Below, piece after piece: positions 19,825-26,676 of a stretch of DNA of 64,000 nucleotides. The stretch is from Clostridiales bacterium (lineage in GTDB: Bacteria > Bacillota > Clostridia > Christensenellales > UBA1242): contig DOEE01000003.1 of NCBI GenBank assembly GCA_003524095.1, forward strand, positions 160,785 to 224,784, given 5' to 3'. Numbering within the stretch: the first letter of the stretch is position 1; every line of letters begins with the position of its first letter. Position numbers and translations under genes: made by a program. The notes below the pieces were generated by a model that had not been told where the DNA came from, ran no database searches, and saw only the letters and a list, made by a program, of their open reading frames with translations.

Positions 19825-20323
19825 ATATATTCTTCCAAGTTTAATAATTTTACTGCTTTTGTATAGTGTTATCAAAAAGAATAATACATATAATAGTTTT
19901 GTTGTTGGTGCAAAATCTTCGTTTGATTTGGTGTTAACTTCATTTCCGTACATAGCAACAATTTTTGTCGCTGTTGAGATTTTTAATGTGTCAGGTCTTA
20001 GTGTACTATTCTCAGATTTTGTAGCACCGGTTTTTGAATTTGTTGGAATTCCTAAGCAATTATCTGAACTAGTAATTCTAAAAAATTTTACGGGTTGCGG
20101 GGCATTAGCATTACTTGAAAATATATTTATAACATATGGCGCAGATAGTTATCTTGCTAGAGCGGGCTGTGTTATTGCGGGGTGTAGCGAGGCGATATTT
20201 TATGTTGTTGCAGTCTTTTTTGGAAAGACCAAAATTACAAAATTTAGATATGCAATAATTGTGGGAGTACTTGCAAATCTTATAGGTGCAATTGTAGGTT
20301 GTTTGCTTTGTAGGTTTATATAA
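19817..20323 (+). CDS. spmB: spore maturation protein B
   Basis: 8-nt overlap with spmA. 168-aa membrane protein of the typical SpmB size. Confidence 0.75.
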   Translation: MSKYILPSLIILLLLYSVIKKNNTYNSFVVGAKSSFDLVLTSFPYIATIFVAVEIFNVSGLSVLFSDFVAPVFEFVGIPKQLSELVILKNFTGCGALALLENIFITYGADSYLARAGCVIAGCSEAIFYVVAVFFGKTKITKFRYAIIVGVLANLIGAIVGCLLCRFI

Positions 20324-20730
20324 AAAGCATTTAAATAAACAACTTTTTTACATGACATTTTATAGTCAAAATAAAATATCAAATTTTATGTGTTGTAACT
20401 TAAATATATAATTTATGACACATGTTTTTATGTTATTGACATAAACAATATACTTTGTGACAAAAATATACAACTAAAAACTAGGCAATATGTGAAGATT
20501 GCAATATCGTTTTATCTGATTATAACTTATTTTCTTTTTTTAATTTCTCTGTTAATTATATTATTTAATTGACAATATTCTTAAATTTGGTTAAGATTAT
20601 TATGAATTATATAGTTGGCTGATTTAAGATAAATCTGATTTAAAAATATTGTCAGCTTTGAGTGTTAAATTTTTAAACTTAACGATGTATATCAAAGAAT
20701 AATAATTCAATAAAAAATAAATTTAAGAGA

Positions 20731-21078
20731 ATGTATATGATAGTAATGAAATTAAATCCAGAGCCATTTGAAAAGATTAAGTCTCACAAAAAAATTTGGG
20801 AAGTAAGACTTAATGATGACAAAAGAAAGGGTGTCCATATTGGTGATAGAATTCTATTTAAAAAGCAACCTGAACTTTTGGAAGGGGTGCTTGCTAAGGT
20901 AGTCGACATCAAACACTTTAATAGTTTTGAAGAGATGTCTGAAGTTTTGTCTTTGACTAGTGTGGGCTTTGAGCCGGGAGCGACAAAACAAGATTGTGTA
21001 GATTGTTACCACAAATATTATACTCCAGCCGAAGAACAAAAGTTTGGTGTAGTTGCATTCAAATTAGAAGTTGTTTAA
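20731..21078 (+). CDS. ASCH domain protein
   Basis: About 113 aa. PEPFEKIKSHKKIWEVRLNDDKR...GDRILF resembles the ASCH/PUA-like fold N-terminus. The start could be the ATG at 20737. Confidence 0.6.
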   Translation: MYMIVMKLNPEPFEKIKSHKKIWEVRLNDDKRKGVHIGDRILFKKQPELLEGVLAKVVDIKHFNSFEEMSEVLSLTSVGFEPGATKQDCVDCYHKYYTPAEEQKFGVVAFKLEVV

Positions 21079-21117
21079 AAAAAGTTAAGCGGATAATTTT
21101 ACCGCTTAACTTTTTTT
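21077..21117. terminator. bidirectional terminator between convergent genes
   Basis: A-run, stem gttaagcgg/ccgcttaac, T-run. Confidence 0.8.
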
Positions 21118-21134
21118 AATATATGTTAATTTTT

Positions 21135-21845
21135 TTACATCTCTTGTTGTTTGAATTTTATGTTTCTTTCGATTACATCATAGCAGGCTTGTTTTAATTT
21201 TTGTCCTACTGGATTATTATTGTTTTTAATTACTTGTTGTTCTATTGAATCAAATGGGTTATATAGGAGATATAGCTTTAAAAGATTCATTTGGACTTTC
21301 TCATATTCTTCTTTTATACTTGGTGTTGATTCGCTATGAGTTATTCGATTGTTTTTAATATCATCAAAATTATAAGGTTTTTCTCTTTGAGTTCTAAATG
21401 AACCAATTTTACCCAACTCAACATCTGGAAGGTCATAGCCTAAATGAATAACTGCCGAAATGTTTCCTATGTAATCAGCCGTAGTCGAAGTTTCGTGATA
21501 TAGTGAGAAAGTTTCTTTGTTAAGCGATGGAGAGGACATCCCACTTTCTTCAAAATCAAACTCCATGTTTAAGTTTGGATATAATTCCAAAAGTCTATTT
21601 TTTAGAACCAAGACAAATTCACCGAAAGTTGTATTAAACAAGTCTTGGTCTTTCTCTAGTTCTATTTCAATTGGTTTTCTTTGTCTTAGAAGGCTGTCTC
21701 TATTTTTAGCATATTGATTCAAATATCTTTTGTAACTAACTTCGTGGTTTGAAGATGGTTTAATTGTGTCTGCGTTAAAGTTAGAAATTTCTCTAGTTAA
21801 TAAATTGTATTTTTCAATTAATTCTTGTATTCTTTCAGTATTCAT
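21135..21845 (-). CDS. hypothetical protein
   Basis: GGGAGA RBS before the ATG at 21845 (track ORF starts at 21899). No recognisable motif. Confidence 0.5.
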   Translation of the reverse strand: MNTERIQELIEKYNLLTREISNFNADTIKPSSNHEVSYKRYLNQYAKNRDSLLRQRKPIEIELEKDQDLFNTTFGEFVLVLKNRLLELYPNLNMEFDFEESGMSSPSLNKETFSLYHETSTTADYIGNISAVIHLGYDLPDVELGKIGSFRTQREKPYNFDDIKNNRITHSESTPSIKEEYEKVQMNLLKLYLLYNPFDSIEQQVIKNNNNPVGQKLKQACYDVIERNIKFKQQEM

Positions 21846-22052
21846 ATTATTCTCCCATAATGTTACATAGATTTTATCATTGAATACAAGTATTGTCAAT
21901 ACTGATTTTTGAATATACTATGTGAGAGATTTGCGAAAAAGTACAGAAGTTTCTCCACTTCTTTAATTTATTCAACTACATTATAGCAGATTATCTAAAT
22001 TAATGCTAATAGATTTATATAAAACTTTTTGTTCCTAAATTGTGATTATTAA

Positions 22053-22095
22053 AACAAAAAGCCCCATTTTATGGGCTTTGATTATTGTGGCGGAG
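22053..22095. repeat. direct repeat A: orphan copy of the tRNA-Ser terminator plus last 8 nt of tRNA-Ser
   Basis: aacaaaaagccccattttatgggctttgattattgtggcggag. 3 substitutions and 1 indel relative to 24351-24394. Confidence 0.85.
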
Positions 22096-22138
22096 CATGT
22101 GTAACGTAAAACGAATTTAAACAAAACTTTACATAATA

Positions 22139-22168
22139 TTGTTAAAATTATAAAAAGTATGCTATAAT
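22139..22168 (+). promoter_or_regulatory. strong sigma-A-type promoter with extended -10: TTGTTA-18-TGcTATAAT
   Basis: -35 at 22139-22144, TG at 22160-22161, -10 at 22163-22168. AAGGAG RBS and the ATG at 22188 follow. Confidence 0.55.
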
Positions 22169-22187
22169 ACGAAAAAAGGAGAATTAT

Positions 22188-23093
22188 ATGGAAGGATATA
22201 TATTTTTAGGAATAATTTGTCTTGTGGGAATACTTGCTTTAACATATTATATTATAAACACCAAAAATCTTAATAAAACAAAACATATGAGTAATATGTA
22301 TAAAAAAATTATAGAAGTAAATGAAAAATATGCTTTTAATTCTGATATTGAAGAAGAAATGAAATTTTCACCACGTTTAAAGTCTAAACGTTCACTTGAT
22401 AAATTTGATATGAGTGCATATGTTATGAGTGATATTGTAGAGAACAAATCATATTACAAAACAATATTTAATAAGGTAGAAGAAAATATTTCATTGTATA
22501 AATCATATTTGAATGAATACTCAAAAATTGAAAATTATATGACTGAAGAAGAATATTCTAAATTAGAGAATCCTAAAATAAGTTTAAAAACTTTAAATAA
22601 GTGTGAACAAAAATTATATAATAAAAACAAATATGCTCCGCCCATTACTTCAGTAGAAGCTCATTGTCATGCAACATATACTAGTCCGTCTGGAAGAAAT
22701 CACTATTGGAGAGATGCTCGTTTTGATTACGATGACTTAAAAAGTTTTTTTAGTGCAATAGAAAGAAAAGAGTTATTTGCTAAACAGGAAGCGGAACGAA
22801 AGGCAAAATTAGCAGAAGAGAAACGAGCAAAAGAGAAAAAACTAAGAGAGTTAGATAAATTAGAAAAAAAGTTGGCAGAAAAAGAGCAAGAAATAAATAA
22901 AAAAGAAAAAGAGTTTTTAGAAGCGACAAAAGCGCACATATACACTACTGACAATGTGGCTATTGACAATGCTGAAATTGAAATAGATGAAAATTTAACA
23001 ATTTCGCAAAAAATGAAGTTGTTAAGAGAAAAGTTTGACAATGGCGAAATTACTTATGAAGAATATCAAGCAAAAAGAAAGGAATTGATGTAA
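22188..23093 (+). CDS. membrane-anchored coiled-coil protein with SHOCT-like C-terminus
   Basis: AAGGAG RBS. TM helix GIICLVGILALTYYII, K/E-rich coiled coil, C-terminal MKLLREKFDNGEITYEEYQAKRKEL (SHOCT-like). Confidence 0.6.
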   Translation: MEGYIFLGIICLVGILALTYYIINTKNLNKTKHMSNMYKKIIEVNEKYAFNSDIEEEMKFSPRLKSKRSLDKFDMSAYVMSDIVENKSYYKTIFNKVEENISLYKSYLNEYSKIENYMTEEEYSKLENPKISLKTLNKCEQKLYNKNKYAPPITSVEAHCHATYTSPSGRNHYWRDARFDYDDLKSFFSAIERKELFAKQEAERKAKLAEEKRAKEKKLRELDKLEKKLAEKEQEINKKEKEFLEATKAHIYTTDNVAIDNAEIEIDENLTISQKMKLLREKFDNGEITYEEYQAKRKELM

Positions 23094-23094
23094 T

Positions 23095-24234
23095 ATGGAA
23101 AAAGAAATGTTACAAAATGATATTGAAGAATTGAAAAATATTAAACAATCATTACAAATGGATATAATAGAATTAGATGATAAAATTTTATTTCAAAATT
23201 TTGGTGTATATCAACCACAATATAATTTTGCAACATTGGATGAGTATAAAGAAAAATTAGACGATATAAGAAATCAACAAAAAGAAATGATTAAAAGTCA
23301 TACTGCTGCAATTTGTAATACTGCATGGAAAGTTCAAGGAAGTGAAAAAGCAGGAAAAAAAATGATTGCTGAAAACATACAACAAGCATTACGAAACTTT
23401 AATATTGAATGCGATTTATGTATTAGCAAAGTGAAATTTAGTAATTATGATAATAGCAAAGAAAGAATATTTAGAGCATTCGAATTACAAAACAAATTAA
23501 ATGCAACTAACGATATACATATAGTCGATGAATACTATAAACTAAAAATAAAAGAACTTGATTTGGCTTATGAATATCAAAAGAAAAAACAAGAAGAAAA
23601 AGAAGAGCTTAGAAGAAAGCGAGAAGAATTAAGAGAAGCTGAAAAAGTTGCACGAGAAATTGAAGAAAAAAGAAAAGAACTTGAAAAAGAACAAGAACAT
23701 TATCAAAATTATTTGAAGAAAATAAATGAACAGATTGAAGTTGAGCAAAGCGAAGAAAGAAAACAATACTTAATTTCGAAAAAAGAAGAATTAGATAATA
23801 ATGTACATGATGTTCATCTTGCATTAGAAGATTTAGATTATAGAGAAGCAAATCACAGAGCAGGTTATGTATATATTATTTCAAATATAGGTGCTTTTGG
23901 AGAAAATATCTTTAAAATAGGAATGACAAGAAGATTGGAGCCTGAGGAAAGAATTGCAGAATTAAGTGGAGCATCTGTTCCATTTAAATTTGATATTCAT
24001 GCAATGATTTTCTCTGATGATGCACCAAAACTTGAGGCAGCACTGCATAATCATTTTGCCGATAAAAAAGTCAATCTCGTAAATGGAAGAAAAGAGTTCT
24101 TTAATGTAACTCTTGAAGAAATAAAGAAAGTAGTTAGAGATAATCATGATAAAACTGTTGACTTTGTAAATGTTCCTGATGCAGAACAATATAGAGAAAG
24201 TTTAATGATAAGAAAAAATTTAAATGCAAATTAA
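23095..24234 (+). CDS. DUF4041-like plus T5orf172/MUG113 (GIY-YIG superfamily) domain protein
   Basis: Starts 1 nt after the upstream stop. FNIECDLCISKVKFSNYDNSKERIFRAFELQNKL (DUF4041-like). C-terminal GYVYIISN..FKIGMTRRLEPEERI..LH..F....EFFNV (T5orf172-like). Confidence 0.75.
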   Translation: MEKEMLQNDIEELKNIKQSLQMDIIELDDKILFQNFGVYQPQYNFATLDEYKEKLDDIRNQQKEMIKSHTAAICNTAWKVQGSEKAGKKMIAENIQQALRNFNIECDLCISKVKFSNYDNSKERIFRAFELQNKLNATNDIHIVDEYYKLKIKELDLAYEYQKKKQEEKEELRRKREELREAEKVAREIEEKRKELEKEQEHYQNYLKKINEQIEVEQSEERKQYLISKKEELDNNVHDVHLALEDLDYREANHRAGYVYIISNIGAFGENIFKIGMTRRLEPEERIAELSGASVPFKFDIHAMIFSDDAPKLEAALHNHFADKKVNLVNGRKEFFNVTLEEIKKVVRDNHDKTVDFVNVPDAEQYRESLMIRKNLNAN

Positions 24235-24350
24235 TTTATTGCTCACGCATTTACTTGATGTGAACAAGTGAGTTGCTATGCTTAAGGTGAGTAAACATTT
24301 TTAATTAATCAATATTTTTATCGTATGGTAGACCATTTATGGTTTTCTGT

Positions 24351-24394
24351 AACAAAAAAGCCCCATTTTTGGGGCTTTAATTATTGTGGCGGAG
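24351..24394. repeat. direct repeat B: authentic terminator and 3-prime end (ctccgcca) of tRNA-Ser
   Basis: aacaaaaaagccccatttttggggctttaattattgtggcggag. Overlaps tRNA-Ser positions 84-91. Confidence 0.85.
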
Positions 24395-24477
24395 ACGGAG
24401 AGATTCGAACTCTCGTGCAGGTTACCCAGCAAACGCATTTCGAGTGCGTCCCGGTACGACCACTTCGGTACGTCTCC
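24387..24477 (-). tRNA. tRNA-Ser (anticodon CGA), 91 nt with long variable arm and encoded CCA
   Basis: Reverse complement ggagacg-ta-ccga...; anticodon stem acgca/tgcgt with loop CTCGAAA; T-arm gagag-ttcgaat-ctctc; acceptor cgtctcc-g-cca. Confidence 0.9.
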
Positions 24478-24669
24478 AAAACACACATAGTTTAACACGA
24501 AACTTTCTGATTGTAAAGTTTATTTGTTAAAAATACTTGTAATTATTGAGTGGTGTTTTACTATTTTCCAAAATTTGTAAAAAACTTATGACTTTTAACA
24601 GTTTTATGGTTAATCAAAAGCGAATTTTTAAAAATGAATAAAAAGCATATTTTTGCTTAAAAATATACT

Positions 24670-25221
24670 ATGTCAAAAATTATTCTTTTTATATCCGCAT
24701 TTGTGCCGATGTATATTTTGTTTTTAATTAATTTAATAGTCGAAATTCTTAATAAAAATTTAACTTTTAATGTTACGAATACTTGTGTAATGGTGGCACT
24801 ACTAATACTAACAATGGTTGGAACAATTGGGCTTATGATAATCTTAAAGTTTAATCAAAAAGAGTACAAGACCATAAAAGTTTTGTCTAAAACCAATATA
24901 ACTGACCAACATTTTTTAAATTACTTTTCGTTATTTGTTTTGCTTGCACTTGCGTTTGATTTGTCAAAACTTTGTTTTGTTAGTGTTTTTGTTGTAATTC
25001 TAATTTTTATTGGAATTGTTTATATCAAAAACAATATTTTCTATGTAAATCCTTTGCTTAATATTTTGGGATATAGTTTTTATGATATTGAGTATGTCGA
25101 TGATAGTGGAAAAACTCAAGATTTAAGGATATTTTTCAAGGGTACACTGGATATTTCCAAACAAGAATATGAGTTGTGTGTATCTAATAGAAATTTGAAT
25201 TTTTTAAAGAAAAAAGATTGA
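24670..25221 (+). CDS. hypothetical polytopic membrane protein (4 TM plus small soluble C-terminal domain)
   Basis: 183-aa ORF with no obvious SD. Its stop overlaps the start of the next ORF. Confidence 0.45.
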   Translation: MSKIILFISAFVPMYILFLINLIVEILNKNLTFNVTNTCVMVALLILTMVGTIGLMIILKFNQKEYKTIKVLSKTNITDQHFLNYFSLFVLLALAFDLSKLCFVSVFVVILIFIGIVYIKNNIFYVNPLLNILGYSFYDIEYVDDSGKTQDLRIFFKGTLDISKQEYELCVSNRNLNFLKKKD

Positions 25222-25733
25222 ATACTCAAAAAGTTACTGATATTGATACTAGTGTTAATTTTAAAGGTCGCACAAAACTTACAAGCGTAGTTATTCCAAA
25301 CAGTGTTACATGGATTGGAACTTCTGCTTTCAATGGTTGCACTGGACTAACTAGTGTAATTATGCAAGATGGCGAAAAAGATGTAACATATTTGGGCAAC
25401 AATGCATTTGACGGATGTACTAATCTTACAAATATAAGACTCTCGAGTACTTTGACAAGTATGAGTAGCCAAGTATTTAATAATTGTAAGAGCCTTACTA
25501 GTATATACATTCCTGCATCTGTAACCGACATTCGTGCAAATGATGATTACCCATTCTTCAATGGCTGTTCAAAAGCTTTAAAAATTTATTGTGGAGCTGA
25601 ATCTAAACCTGACGGTTGGGGTAAACGCTGGAATTATAATGGGACTTTTGGCACTTCGTCTAAATTAGCAGATGTCACCTGGGGTGTTACTAGGGAACAA
25701 TACGAACAAGCAATTAGTCAAACACAAGAATAA
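25218..25733 (+). CDS. BspA-type leucine-rich-repeat (LRR_5-like) protein, no signal peptide
   Basis: Repeats of the IP.SVT.IG..AF..C..LTS type (VVIPNSVTWIGTSAFNGCTGLTSV, NAFDGCTNLTNI, QVFNNCKSLTSIYIPASVTDI). TTG start overlapping the upstream stop. Confidence 0.55.
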   Translation: MNTQKVTDIDTSVNFKGRTKLTSVVIPNSVTWIGTSAFNGCTGLTSVIMQDGEKDVTYLGNNAFDGCTNLTNIRLSSTLTSMSSQVFNNCKSLTSIYIPASVTDIRANDDYPFFNGCSKALKIYCGAESKPDGWGKRWNYNGTFGTSSKLADVTWGVTREQYEQAISQTQE

Positions 25734-25839
25734 TTTATTTTAGAATGGTTTGATATTATAATTATTATTTGTTGGCAATTCTTACAAATATCCCTTTGGA
25801 TTGCTTGTCTATTACTTCCTAAAATTTTATCTATAAAAT

Positions 25840-25871
25840 AAAAAAAGTCATGGAGTATCCATGACTTTTTT
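25840..25871. terminator. bidirectional terminator
   Basis: aaaaaaa-gtcatgga-gta-tccatgac-ttttttt. Confidence 0.8.
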
Positions 25872-25971
25872 GCTGTAAAATTTTAATAAATTTATAAGTT
25901 TTAATAATTTAAATTAATATATAATTAATTTTTTATATGCAAAATTGCTTGAGACTGAGACATAAAAAATA

Positions 25972-26676
25972 TCAATAACTCACTGCAATTTCAAGGCTTA
26001 GTTTAATCATGTCTAGGAATGAATTTTGTCTTTCTTCGCTGGTTGTTTCTTCGTCAGTTATTAGGTTATTTGAAACCGTGCAAATACAAAGTGCATCTTT
26101 GTGTAGTCTTTCGGCATTTAGATAAAGTGATGCACCTTCCATTTCAACACCGAGTAAGTTTTTTTCCAAAGATAACTTGATTTCATCTTCGTCTGTATAG
26201 AACGTGTCGGAGCACAAGATATCTCCAGTACTATATTTGTATCCTAGTGTGTCCGCTATTGACACTGCACGAGATAAGAGTTCTTTTGAGGAATTTATGT
26301 AGTCTGCACCAAAGTTTATATAAAAATTATTATAGTTTGTTTTTGTAAAGACTCTTTTGCCAAGAATTAAACTTTTGAGCGGAATATCTTTGTTCATAGC
26401 GCCAATTGAGCCGACTCTGATTATTCTGTCTACATCATAAAATTTAAAGAGTTCATAACTATATATTCCCATGGAAGGATTGCCCATTCCACTCGCCATA
26501 ACGGTTACTAATTTGTCTTTGTAATAACCTGTGTATCCTTGTACTCCACGAACATTATTTACTAGTTTGTAATCTTTTAAGAATGTTTCGGCAATCATCT
26601 TGCTTCTAAGTGGGTCGCCGGGCATTATAACTGTTTTTGCAATTTCTTCTTTGCTTGCTTGATTATGAGCTGTCAT
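25972..26676 (-). CDS. deoD: purine nucleoside phosphorylase (DeoD type)
   Basis: MPGDPLR, GYTGYYKDK.VTVMASGMGNPS, GVEMEGA motifs. Follows deoB. Confidence 0.88.
   Translation of the reverse strand: MTAHNQASKEEIAKTVIMPGDPLRSKMIAETFLKDYKLVNNVRGVQGYTGYYKDKLVTVMASGMGNPSMGIYSYELFKFYDVDRIIRVGSIGAMNKDIPLKSLILGKRVFTKTNYNNFYINFGADYINSSKELLSRAVSIADTLGYKYSTGDILCSDTFYTDEDEIKLSLEKNLLGVEMEGASLYLNAERLHKDALCICTVSNNLITDEETTSEERQNSFLDMIKLSLEIAVSY

What the first reader, a model, noticed from the sequence alone, without database searches (positions are those of the whole stretch)
22188..24234. Candidate two-gene defence (or homing) module: TM/coiled-coil/SHOCT-like protein plus DUF4041-T5orf172 GIY-YIG-like protein
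Gene 1 (301 aa) has one N-terminal TM helix, a central region (CHATYTSPSGRNHYWRDARFDYDD) I cannot assign, a roughly 60-aa K/E coiled coil, and a C-terminal MKLLREKFDNGEITYEEYQAKRKEL that looks like a SHOCT domain. Gene 2 (379 aa) starts 1 nt after gene 1 stops. It carries a DUF4041-like segment (FNIECDLCISKVKFSNYDNSKERIFRAFELQNKL), a second K/E coiled coil, and a C-terminal T5orf172/MUG113-like domain (GYVYIISN..FKIGMTRRLEPEERI..EFFNV). The T5orf172/MUG113 family belongs to the GIY-YIG nuclease superfamily. The inference is that a membrane-tethered partner coupled to a predicted nuclease, on a mobile-looking cassette beside a tRNA, fits an abortive-infection or anti-phage system. The alternative is a free-standing GIY-YIG homing-endonuclease-type selfish cassette. 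I do not know of a characterised system with this exact pairing.
Basis: partly seen in the sequence, partly recalled or inferred. Interest (0 to 1): 0.75.

Follow-up and report, generated by a model that had tools for sequence, protein, structure and literature searches.

The report
Two-gene SNIPE nuclease with separate anchor
The second gene is a relative of SNIPE, a recently characterised bacterial nuclease that cuts phage DNA as it is injected, but it lacks SNIPE's membrane anchor; an always-adjacent, previously undescribed membrane protein probably supplies that anchor.

Summary
In detail: both ORFs, the 1-nt gap, and the TM, SHOCT-like, DUF4041 and T5orf172 features are real. Gene 2 is not an unknown. 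It matches the PD-Lambda-1 defence model (E 1.5e-149), which is SNIPE (Nature 2026), a single-chain membrane-bound GIY-YIG nuclease. Gene 2 is 42% identical to E. coli SNIPE and keeps the catalytic Glu (E414 = E314). It starts at SNIPE residue ~103, so it lacks the TM anchor whose deletion makes SNIPE toxic. Gene 1 has a TM helix, a globular domain with no known fold, a long helix and a SHOCT-like tail. A gene 1 relative lies directly upstream of this short SNIPE in all 15 distinct loci examined. Its TM-plus-globular module is fused to HNH, Mrr or helicase effectors elsewhere, in one case inside a prophage lysogeny module. The 2.26-kb cassette lies between 40-nt att-like repeats at tRNA-Ser and is absent from near-identical strains. 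Best reading: a two-component SNIPE with the anchor/adapter supplied in trans. This is a new variant of a known kind. Physical interaction and anti-phage activity are inferred, not shown.

The parts
21118..24350 (.). Strain-variable segment holding a 236/254-aa ORF of unknown function plus the two-gene cassette. Related strains carry 180-520 bp of unrelated sequence here.
   Evidence: blastn of empty-site loci L026-L030, L032 and L033 against the window. The left flank ends at ~21117 (96.5-99.1% identity). The right flank resumes at 24351-24355 (98.5-100% identity).
22056..22095 (.). Left copy of the 40-nt att-like direct repeat: a terminator hairpin followed by ATTATTG and TGGCGGAG, the last 8 nt of tRNA-Ser.
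   Evidence: the repeat finder family D2, 37/40 identical to 24355-24394; alignment.
22139..22168 (+). Promoter-like site (TTGTTA, 18 nt, TG-extended TATAAT), followed by an AGGAG ribosome-binding site about 6 nt before the gene 1 ATG.
   Evidence: Consensus scan and sequence. This is a pattern match only.
22188..23093 (+). Gene 1, the proposed membrane anchor/adapter (301 aa). It has a TM helix (residues ~4-24), a cytoplasmic alpha/beta domain (36-179), a long helix (181-247), the conserved motif EATKxHIY (245-252) and a SHOCT-like helix pair (272-300).
   Evidence: Family of 71 close and about 1,000 distant representatives.
22677..22706 (+). YTSPSGRNHY motif in a beta-hairpin; the signature of the N-module, which also occurs in the HNH, Mrr and helicase fusions.
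   Evidence: Invariant or near-invariant columns Y164, T165, S166, P167, G169 and N171. The motif is kept in the N-module-only set, where Y165, P168 and G170 are conserved. The hairpin is E157-165/E172-179 in the model.
23001..23090 (+). SHOCT-like C-terminal tail of gene 1 (residues 272-301).
   Evidence: Pfam PF09851, E 2.8e-5, 24.2 bits against a cut-off of 27. Its divergence pattern tracks gene 2 (rho 0.35-0.52) while the TM and globular parts do not.
23095..24234 (+). Gene 2, a SNIPE/PD-lambda-1 nuclease body without a TM anchor (379 aa). It has an N-terminal helix (2-34), DUF4041 (97-151), long helices (145-254) and a GIY-YIG/T5orf172 domain (255-350) with the catalytic Glu at E314.
   Evidence: PADLOC PD-Lambda-1 E 1.5e-149 over profile positions 104-477 of 491. 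Pfam. Alignment to E. coli SNIPE. AlphaFold2 model. No 19-residue window has hydropathy above 0.96.
24355..24394 (.). Right copy of the att-like direct repeat. It contains a bidirectional terminator hairpin (24357-24378) and the 3' end of tRNA-Ser.
24387..24477 (-). tRNA-Ser(CGA), the integration target.
   Evidence: ARAGORN; Rfam tRNA 52.6 bits.

Best explanation
This is a two-component version of the SNIPE (PD-lambda-1) anti-phage system. Gene 2 is the SNIPE working body: a DUF4041 DNA and tape-measure-binding region plus a GIY-YIG nuclease. It lacks the N-terminal transmembrane anchor that keeps single-chain SNIPE at the membrane and away from the chromosome. Gene 1 is co-transcribed and translationally coupled. 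It encodes a single-pass membrane protein with a short N-terminus outside the cell and its bulk in the cytoplasm. I propose that its C-terminal part (long helix, EATKxHIY motif, SHOCT-like tail) docks the N-terminal helix of gene 2, so the nuclease is held at the membrane. There it would cut incoming siphophage DNA during injection, as shown for E. coli SNIPE. The fast-evolving, exchangeable TM-plus-globular N-module of gene 1 would act as the adapter that sets where and on which phages the nuclease acts. What is shown: family membership of gene 2, absence of a TM in it, strict gene 1-gene 2 linkage, reuse of the gene 1 N-module on other nucleases, and mobility of the cassette. What is inferred: the physical gene 1-gene 2 contact, the topology, and the anti-phage phenotype.
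For: (1) Gene 2 matches the PD-Lambda-1 model at E 1.5e-149, but only over profile positions 104-477. It is 42% identical to the 500-aa E. coli protein that carries every residue named in the SNIPE paper. It begins at that protein's residue ~103, and the catalytic E414 aligns to the invariant E314. (2) Gene 2 has no hydrophobic segment, whereas the E. coli and B. cereus single-chain homologues have an N-terminal TM. SNIPE lacking its TM is toxic and cleaves host DNA (PMC13190303). (3) All 11 genome loci found through gene 1 have the short SNIPE immediately downstream. All 4 distinct loci found independently through gene 2 have a gene 1-family ORF immediately upstream. The gap is -1 to ~21 nt, and gene 1 identity to the window falls as low as 29%. 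(4) Every partner has 1 or ~3 N-terminal TM segments. (5) Mean pairwise identity rises along the pair: TM 17%, globular 31%, coiled coil 34%, tail 42%, gene 2 N-helix 59%, DUF4041 70%, nuclease 81%. This is the same N-to-C gradient reported for single-chain SNIPE. The gene 1 tail co-varies with gene 2 and the N-module does not. P0032 and P0043 have a different N-half, with three TM segments, but a C-terminal ~70 residues nearly identical to the window's gene 1. The 99%-identical gene 2 relatives P0074 and P0075 are listed on contigs of matching length. (6) Rosetta-stone evidence: the gene 1 N-module is covalently fused to HNH in 54 of 82 N-module-only representatives, and also to Mrr_cat and to a UvrD-like helicase. 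These effectors need the cytoplasm, which supports a cytoplasmic location for the domain. (7) One HNH fusion sits between the CI-like repressor and the integrase of a prophage, a typical position for defence cargo. (8) The cassette is a 2.26-kb unit between att-like repeats at tRNA-Ser and is missing in near-identical strains.
Against: Co-variation of the gene 1 tail with gene 2 could reflect physical linkage alone. Topology rests on the positive-inside rule and on the nature of the fused effectors, not on a dedicated predictor or an experiment. No fused gene 1-gene 2 protein appeared among the listed hits, so the Rosetta-stone evidence concerns other nucleases, not SNIPE itself. The SHOCT match is below Pfam's threshold for this protein. 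Neighbourhoods are only moderately rich in defence or mobile genes: a large serine recombinase in 4 of 15 loci, single Lamassu and AbiD hits, and many housekeeping neighbours. The hosts are uncultured gut Clostridia and no phage phenotype exists.
Confidence: 0.6

Rival explanations
1. Sequestration and release (abortive infection or toxin-antitoxin logic). Gene 1 is mainly an inhibitor that holds the intrinsically toxic, TM-less nuclease inactive at the membrane. Phage infection disturbs gene 1, for example through membrane perturbation or degradation, and frees gene 2 to degrade all DNA in the cell.
For: SNIPE without its TM is toxic and goes to the nucleoid (PMC13190303). Gene 2 has no anchor of its own. 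The strict upstream, translationally coupled order of partner then nuclease resembles antitoxin-toxin operons.
Against: Characterised SNIPE gives direct defence and infected cells survive. The gene 1 N-module is covalently fused to HNH and Mrr nucleases in most relatives, and a fused nuclease cannot be released. No protease or degradation signal was seen.
Confidence: 0.2
2. Sensor and effector without constitutive tethering. Gene 1 senses phage entry at the membrane, as proposed for KwaA or ZorAB. It then allosterically activates or recruits an otherwise auto-inhibited cytoplasmic gene 2.
For: Membrane-localised SNIPE is reported to be auto-inhibited until injection. The conserved globular domain of gene 1 has no known fold and could be a sensing domain.
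Against: A free cytoplasmic SNIPE body would be expected to be toxic by analogy with SNIPE lacking its TM. The covalent fusions argue for a permanent anchor rather than a transient signal.
Confidence: 0.12
3. A free-standing GIY-YIG homing-endonuclease-type selfish cassette.
For: T5orf172/MUG113 belongs to the GIY-YIG superfamily. The cassette is small, mobile and lies beside a tRNA.
Against: There is a full-length match to the SNIPE defence family, including DUF4041 and the long helical linker. There is no intron, intein or cognate target gene. The membrane partner is conserved and obligate. The flanking repeats are of the att type at a tRNA 3' end, not a homing site.
Confidence: 0.03
4. Chance neighbours, or a SNIPE gene broken by a frameshift into two ORFs (a pseudogene).
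For: The two ORFs are 1 nt apart and in different frames.
Against: The split is conserved in all 15 distinct loci, with gene 1 identity to the window as low as 29%. Each gene 1 ends in a complete SHOCT-like tail with its own stop, and each gene 2 has its own start. Gene 1 shows no similarity to the N-terminal regions of single-chain SNIPEs (blastp E above 2).
Confidence: 0.02

Closest known systems
SNIPE / PD-lambda-1 (E. coli; Vassallo et al. 2022; Saxton et al., Nature 2026, PMC13190303)
   Same: Gene 2 shares the DUF4041 domain, the long helical linker and the C-terminal GIY-YIG/T5orf172 nuclease with the catalytic Glu. It is 42% identical over 378 aligned columns and matches the PADLOC model at E 1.5e-149. 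The N-to-C conservation gradient is the same, and a membrane element lies at the N-terminal side of the system.
   Different: SNIPE is one polypeptide with its own N-terminal TM helix. Here the TM is on a separate 301-aa protein that is unrelated in sequence to SNIPE N-terminal regions and has its own globular domain and SHOCT-like tail. The SNIPE paper explains TM-less homologues (34%) by DivIVA-like, PH or DUF4428 N-terminal domains, or leaves them unexplained. It does not mention partner genes.
Membrane-anchored HNH, Mrr and helicase proteins that carry the gene 1 N-module (unnamed metagenomic proteins, e.g. P0245, P0252, P0243, P0262)
   Same: They share the TM helix plus the ~170-aa domain with the YTSPxGRNxY motif at the N-terminus, paired with a nuclease effector. 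One lies in a prophage lysogeny module.
   Different: The effector is fused directly and is of a different nuclease superfamily. They lack the long coiled coil, the EATKxHIY motif and the SHOCT tail. They are not in PADLOC 2.0 and none has been characterised.
Kiwa (KwaA/KwaB) and Zorya (ZorAB plus effectors)
   Same: These are conceptually similar. A membrane component at the site of phage DNA entry works with a cytoplasmic DNA-binding or nuclease effector encoded in the same operon (review PMC13434031).
   Different: There is no sequence relationship to gene 1 or gene 2. Kiwa's effector is not a nuclease, and Zorya uses a MotAB-like motor. The KwaA-like gene next to this cassette belongs to the core genome and is a separate unit.

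Membership tests
SNIPE / PD-lambda-1 | Central DUF4041 (PF13250) domain | tested here: met
   Pfam E 5.2e-16, 58.7 bits against a cut-off of 27, residues 97-151.
SNIPE / PD-lambda-1 | C-terminal GIY-YIG (T5orf172/MUG113) nuclease with the catalytic Glu (E414 in E. coli SNIPE) | tested here: met
   T5orf172 at 1.6e-19 and MUG113 at 5.3e-20. E414 aligns to E314, which is invariant in 35 homologues.
SNIPE / PD-lambda-1 | Full-length similarity to the family model | tested here: met
   PADLOC PDLC03976 at E 1.5e-149, but only over profile positions 104-477 of 491. phrog_1847 at 3.5e-149 over positions 97-470 of 474.
SNIPE / PD-lambda-1 | N-terminal transmembrane or other membrane-targeting region in the same polypeptide | tested here: not met
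   No 19-residue window exceeds hydropathy 0.96, and the protein starts at SNIPE residue ~103. No upstream in-frame extension is possible, since the ORF begins at the first start codon after a stop.
SNIPE / PD-lambda-1 | Single-gene system | tested here: not met
   A gene 1-family ORF lies directly upstream in all 15 distinct loci.
SNIPE / PD-lambda-1 | Membrane localisation, cleavage of phage DNA during injection, and protection against siphoviruses | not testable with these tools
   This needs expression, localisation and phage assays.
SHOCT domain (PF09851), gene 1 C-terminus | Match to the Pfam model above the gathering score | tested here: inconclusive
   24.2 bits against a cut-off of 27, E 2.8e-5. 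PF09851 is precomputed for about 20 family members. The model shows a helix-turn-helix at 272-300.
GIY-YIG homing endonuclease | Location in an intron or intein, or beside a cognate target gene, without an obligate partner | tested here: not met
   The pair sits in a tRNA-flanking cassette and has a conserved membrane partner.
Kiwa (considered only for the neighbouring gene 24670-25221) | KwaA together with KwaB (DUF4868) | tested here: not met
   KwaA-like hits: PADLOC 3.1e-19; NCBIfam 61 bits against a cut-off of 100. The next gene is an LRR_5 protein, not KwaB.

The most novel reading that the evidence does not exclude
The TM-plus-globular N-module of gene 1 defines a broad, undescribed class of membrane-tethered nuclease immunity in Firmicute-type bacteria and their prophages. 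The same entry-site adapter would be combined either covalently (HNH, Mrr, helicase-nuclease) or through a coiled-coil/SHOCT docking tail (SNIPE-type GIY-YIG) with interchangeable DNA-cutting effectors. Cutting phage DNA at the point of injection would then be a modular, recurrent strategy rather than a peculiarity of SNIPE. Some of the TM-less SNIPE homologues not accounted for by the N-terminal domains described in the 2026 paper would be explained by anchors supplied in trans.
Probability: 0.35. Interest if true: 0.78.

Novelty: new variant of a known kind. Interest (0 to 1): 0.62.

Why it matters
SNIPE introduced a new way for a cell to tell self from non-self: where the DNA is, rather than what it is. 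In that model the membrane anchor is what prevents autoimmunity, yet a third of SNIPE homologues have no TM segment. This locus shows one natural solution, in which the anchor is a separate, rapidly diversifying and exchangeable protein. That gives a clean genetic system for separating tethering, targeting and cutting, because the adapter can be swapped while the nuclease stays the same. It also points to a docking device (long helix, EATKxHIY motif, SHOCT-like tail) whose role could be tested. It further reveals about 1,000 representative proteins in which the same anchor module is joined to other nucleases, including one in a prophage lysogeny module. Current defence-annotation tools would call gene 2 alone as a single-gene system and would miss gene 1 and the HNH and Mrr relatives.

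Tried and rejected
(2) Foldseek of the confident gene 1 model against the PDB and BFVD gave no match below E 0.25. A profile search of PDB sequences gave nothing below E 0.28 for gene 1 and nothing for gene 2. (3) Gene 1 was searched by tblastn or pattern scan against INPHARED phages, PLSDB plasmids and IMG/VR contigs, with no relatives found. (4) An exact look-up of the ASCH neighbour was not on record because of a start-codon difference; the PNP gene worked instead. (5) I looked for flanking direct repeats around the pair in eight other loci. Only L016 has one, a 300-nt repeat at 97% identity; the others show only chance-level A-rich matches. The att-like repeat is therefore specific to this insertion. 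(6) I asked whether the 254-aa ORF next to the cassette belongs to the system. It occurs only in the same strain and has no family hits, so I rejected it as a component. (7) The 121-aa gene directly upstream of the TM-less B. thetaiotaomicron SNIPE homologue has no TM segment, so it is not a membrane anchor; its similarity to gene 1 was not tested. (8) Rfam found nothing in 20300-26000 apart from the tRNA.
Full report
**1. Observation**

The two ORFs are exactly as described. Gene 1 is 22188-23093 (+, 301 aa) and gene 2 is 23095-24234 (+, 379 aa). The gene 2 ATG lies one base after the gene 1 TAA and in another frame. tRNA-Ser(CGA) lies at 24387-24477 on the minus strand. The segment has 26% G+C against about 32% around it.

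For gene 1, SHOCT scores 24.2 bits at E 2.8e-5, just below the 27-bit cut-off. PF09851 is nevertheless precomputed for many relatives. Gene 1 has one strongly hydrophobic N-terminal segment. Gene 2 has none; its maximum 19-residue hydropathy is 0.96.

**2. Gene 2 is a SNIPE (PD-lambda-1) nuclease without its anchor**

The PADLOC model PD-Lambda-1 matches gene 2 at E 1.5e-149, but only over profile positions 104-477 of 491. phrog_1847 behaves the same way.

PD-lambda-1 was renamed SNIPE and characterised in 2026 (PMC13190303). It is a single protein with a periplasmic N-terminus and one TM helix. Its cytoplasmic DUF4041 domain binds DNA and probably phage tape-measure proteins, and a GIY-YIG nuclease forms its C-terminus. 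It cleaves phage DNA during injection. Deleting the TM makes it toxic, because it then goes to the nucleoid.

A 500-aa DUF4041 protein on an E. coli plasmid (L034) carries every residue named in that paper at the stated positions: E223, N250, L253, W257, E264, K305, I308, T319 and E414. It can therefore stand in for SNIPE. Gene 2 is 42% identical to it over 378 aligned columns and begins at its residue ~103. Gene 2 keeps the catalytic Glu as E314, which is invariant in 35 homologues. The E. coli and B. cereus single-chain homologues have an N-terminal TM followed by a coiled-coil spacer that gene 2 lacks. The AlphaFold2 model of gene 2 (pLDDT 77) is the expected elongated helix, DUF4041, long helices and GIY-YIG arrangement.

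**3. Gene 1 is a conserved, obligate partner**

Gene 1 has 71 close relatives with invariant motifs YTSPSGRNHY and EATKxHIY and a conserved tail.

- A scan of one genome per species found 11 loci that encode a gene 1 relative. They are Clostridia MAGs, one Gastranaerophilales MAG and one unclassified MAG.
- Every one has a gene 2 homologue directly downstream.
- Conversely, I chose four gene 2 homologues without reference to gene 1: P0130, P0174, P0186 and P0162. All four have a gene 1-family ORF directly upstream, with hmmsearch E values of 1e-63 to 1e-114.
- The stop-to-start distance is -1 to about 21 nt in all 15 distinct loci.
- Gene 2 is 64-89% identical to the window copy across the 11 genome loci, while gene 1 is only 29-49% identical.
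- All partners have one or about three N-terminal TM segments.
- No fused gene 1-gene 2 protein appeared among the listed hits, and gene 1 has no similarity to the N-terminal regions of single-chain SNIPEs.

**4. Anatomy of gene 1**

The AlphaFold2 model, built on 36 sequences, has a mean pLDDT of 85. It shows the following elements.

- A TM helix that runs into a cytoplasmic helix (residues 2-34).
- A compact alpha/beta domain (36-179), whose beta-hairpin carries the YTSPSGRNHY motif.
- A 67-residue helix (181-247).
- A low-confidence stretch (250-267) that begins just inside the conserved EATKxHIY motif.
- A helix pair (272-300) that corresponds to SHOCT.

Neither Foldseek (PDB, BFVD) nor a sequence profile search of the PDB finds a relative.

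The flank after the TM is rich in Lys (NTKNLNKTKH), whereas the N-terminus is only MEG. The positive-inside rule therefore places the bulk of the protein in the cytoplasm, which is the same orientation as SNIPE. This is an inference.

**5. Modularity**

Mean pairwise identity among 16 pairs rises steadily along the system:

| Region | Mean pairwise identity |
|---|---|
| gene 1 TM | 17% |
| gene 1 globular domain | 31% |
| gene 1 coiled coil | 34% |
| gene 1 tail | 42% |
| gene 2 N-helix | 59% |
| gene 2 DUF4041 | 70% |
| gene 2 linker | 65% |
| gene 2 nuclease | 81% |

This is the gradient the SNIPE authors report for the single chain. They interpret the variable N-terminal region as a specificity adapter.

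The divergence pattern of the gene 1 tail correlates with that of gene 2 (Spearman 0.35-0.52). That of the TM and globular parts does not (-0.08 to 0.21).

Two relatives, P0032 and P0043, have a quite different three-TM N-half but a C-terminal ~70 residues nearly identical to the window's gene 1. Gene 2 relatives that are 99% identical to the window's (P0074, P0075) are listed on contigs of the same length as theirs. The N-module is thus exchanged while the tail travels with the nuclease. This fits a tail-nuclease interface, but physical linkage alone could also produce it.

**6. The N-module is reused with other nucleases**

An exhaustive profile search found 1,042 representatives at E ≤ 1e-3 and 707 at E ≤ 1e-10. 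The weak end may include coiled-coil noise. Besides full-length relatives there is a large class of ~275-aa proteins that match only the TM-plus-globular part.

Of 82 such representatives, 54 end in an HNH nuclease. Others carry Mrr_cat (P0243) or a UvrD-like helicase with a PD-(D/E)XK hit (P0262). PADLOC matches only their nuclease parts, and the sources give them no names. Fusion to ATP-dependent and DNA-cutting domains is independent support for a cytoplasmic location of the module.

The HNH fusion P0252 overlaps the end of a CI-like repressor gene (HTH plus Peptidase_S24) by 4 nt. An integrase gene follows it, and the neighbouring genes include phage recombination functions such as ERF. 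This lysogeny-module position is where prophages often carry superinfection-exclusion and defence genes (my own knowledge). A similar HNH fusion lies next to the pair in L009.

**7. Mobility and context**

- A 40-nt direct repeat (37/40 identical) at 22056-22095 and 24355-24394 brackets the pair. It consists of a terminator hairpin plus the last 8 nt of tRNA-Ser.
- There is no integrase between the repeats.
- Seven neighbourhood variants from strains that share an identical PNP protein keep the flanks: 98.5-100% identity on the right and 96.5-99.1% on the left. They lack 21118-24350 entirely and have 180-520 bp of other sequence instead. Two of them carry a degenerate extra att-like copy.
- The window derives from a human-gut metagenome scaffold of a spore-forming Clostridia bacterium.
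- Across the 15 loci the neighbours are mixed. Large serine recombinases occur in four loci and XRE-type HTH genes match five neighbour ORFs. There are single Lamassu and AbiD hits and two SoFic hits. Many neighbours are housekeeping genes.
- No gene 1 relatives were found in the isolate-phage, plasmid or IMG/VR collections.

**8. Mechanism**

The best-supported reading is a two-component SNIPE. Gene 1 would anchor and target the nuclease, and gene 2 would bind and cut entering phage DNA.

- Shown: family membership of gene 2, absence of an anchor in gene 2, obligate linkage of the two genes, modular exchange, reuse of the anchor module on other nucleases, and recent mobility.
- Inferred: docking through the gene 1 helix, motif and SHOCT tail to the gene 2 N-helix; the topology; direct rather than abortive defence; and the phage range.

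The main rival is a sequestration-and-release (abortive infection or toxin-antitoxin-like) logic. The toxicity of anchorless SNIPE makes it plausible. It is disfavoured by the covalent fusions and by SNIPE's direct-defence phenotype. The homing-endonuclease and broken-gene readings are rejected.

**9. Novelty**

SNIPE itself is known. The SNIPE paper, two later reviews and the rest of the searchable library treat it as a single protein and do not mention partner genes. No paper in the library links SHOCT with anti-phage defence. PADLOC has no model for gene 1 or its N-module.

I therefore rate this as a new variant of a known kind. It may also point to a wider class of membrane-tethered nucleases.

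Noticed in passing
window 24670-25733: A KwaA-like membrane protein gene (PADLOC KwaA E 3.1e-19; NCBIfam KwaA 61 bits, below the 100-bit cut-off) overlaps by 4 nt a BspA-type LRR_5 protein gene (171 aa) rather than a KwaB (DUF4868) gene. The pair is present in all related strains, including those without the SNIPE cassette, so it belongs to the core genome. It could be an orphan KwaA or a Kiwa-like variant with a different partner.
   Followed up: partly
window 21135-21899 (-): A 236/254-aa ORF with no Pfam, NCBIfam, PADLOC or PHROG hit lies inside the strain-variable segment but outside the att-like repeats. It was found only in loci from strains that share the window's exact gene 1 protein, and it has its own strong promoter-like site (TTGACA, 17 nt, TG-TAAAAT).
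   Followed up: partly
L016 3231-3530 and 6410-6709: In this metagenome scaffold the gene 1/gene 2 pair is bracketed by a 300-nt direct repeat at 97% identity that includes the 5' part of an XRE-type HTH gene. Three such HTH genes in a row (3424, 6603, 9887) each precede different unannotated cargo, which looks like a tandem array of HTH-led cassettes.
   Followed up: no
L037 4381-7049 (also L038-L040): A prophage lysogeny module has the order CI-like repressor (HTH plus Peptidase_S24), TM-N-module-HNH protein (4-nt overlap with the repressor gene), then tyrosine integrase. This is a candidate prophage-encoded membrane nuclease for superinfection exclusion.
   Followed up: partly
L030 and L032, between the KwaA-like and ASCH genes: Cassette-free strains still carry a degenerate second copy (~75% identity) of the att-like sequence near tRNA-Ser. 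This suggests repeated integration and excision at this site.
   Followed up: no
L012 1-2705: An Abi_2 family gene and a large serine recombinase lie immediately upstream of another gene 1/gene 2 pair. Large serine recombinases occur near the pair in 4 of 15 loci and may be the mobilising enzymes for some versions of the cassette.
   Followed up: no
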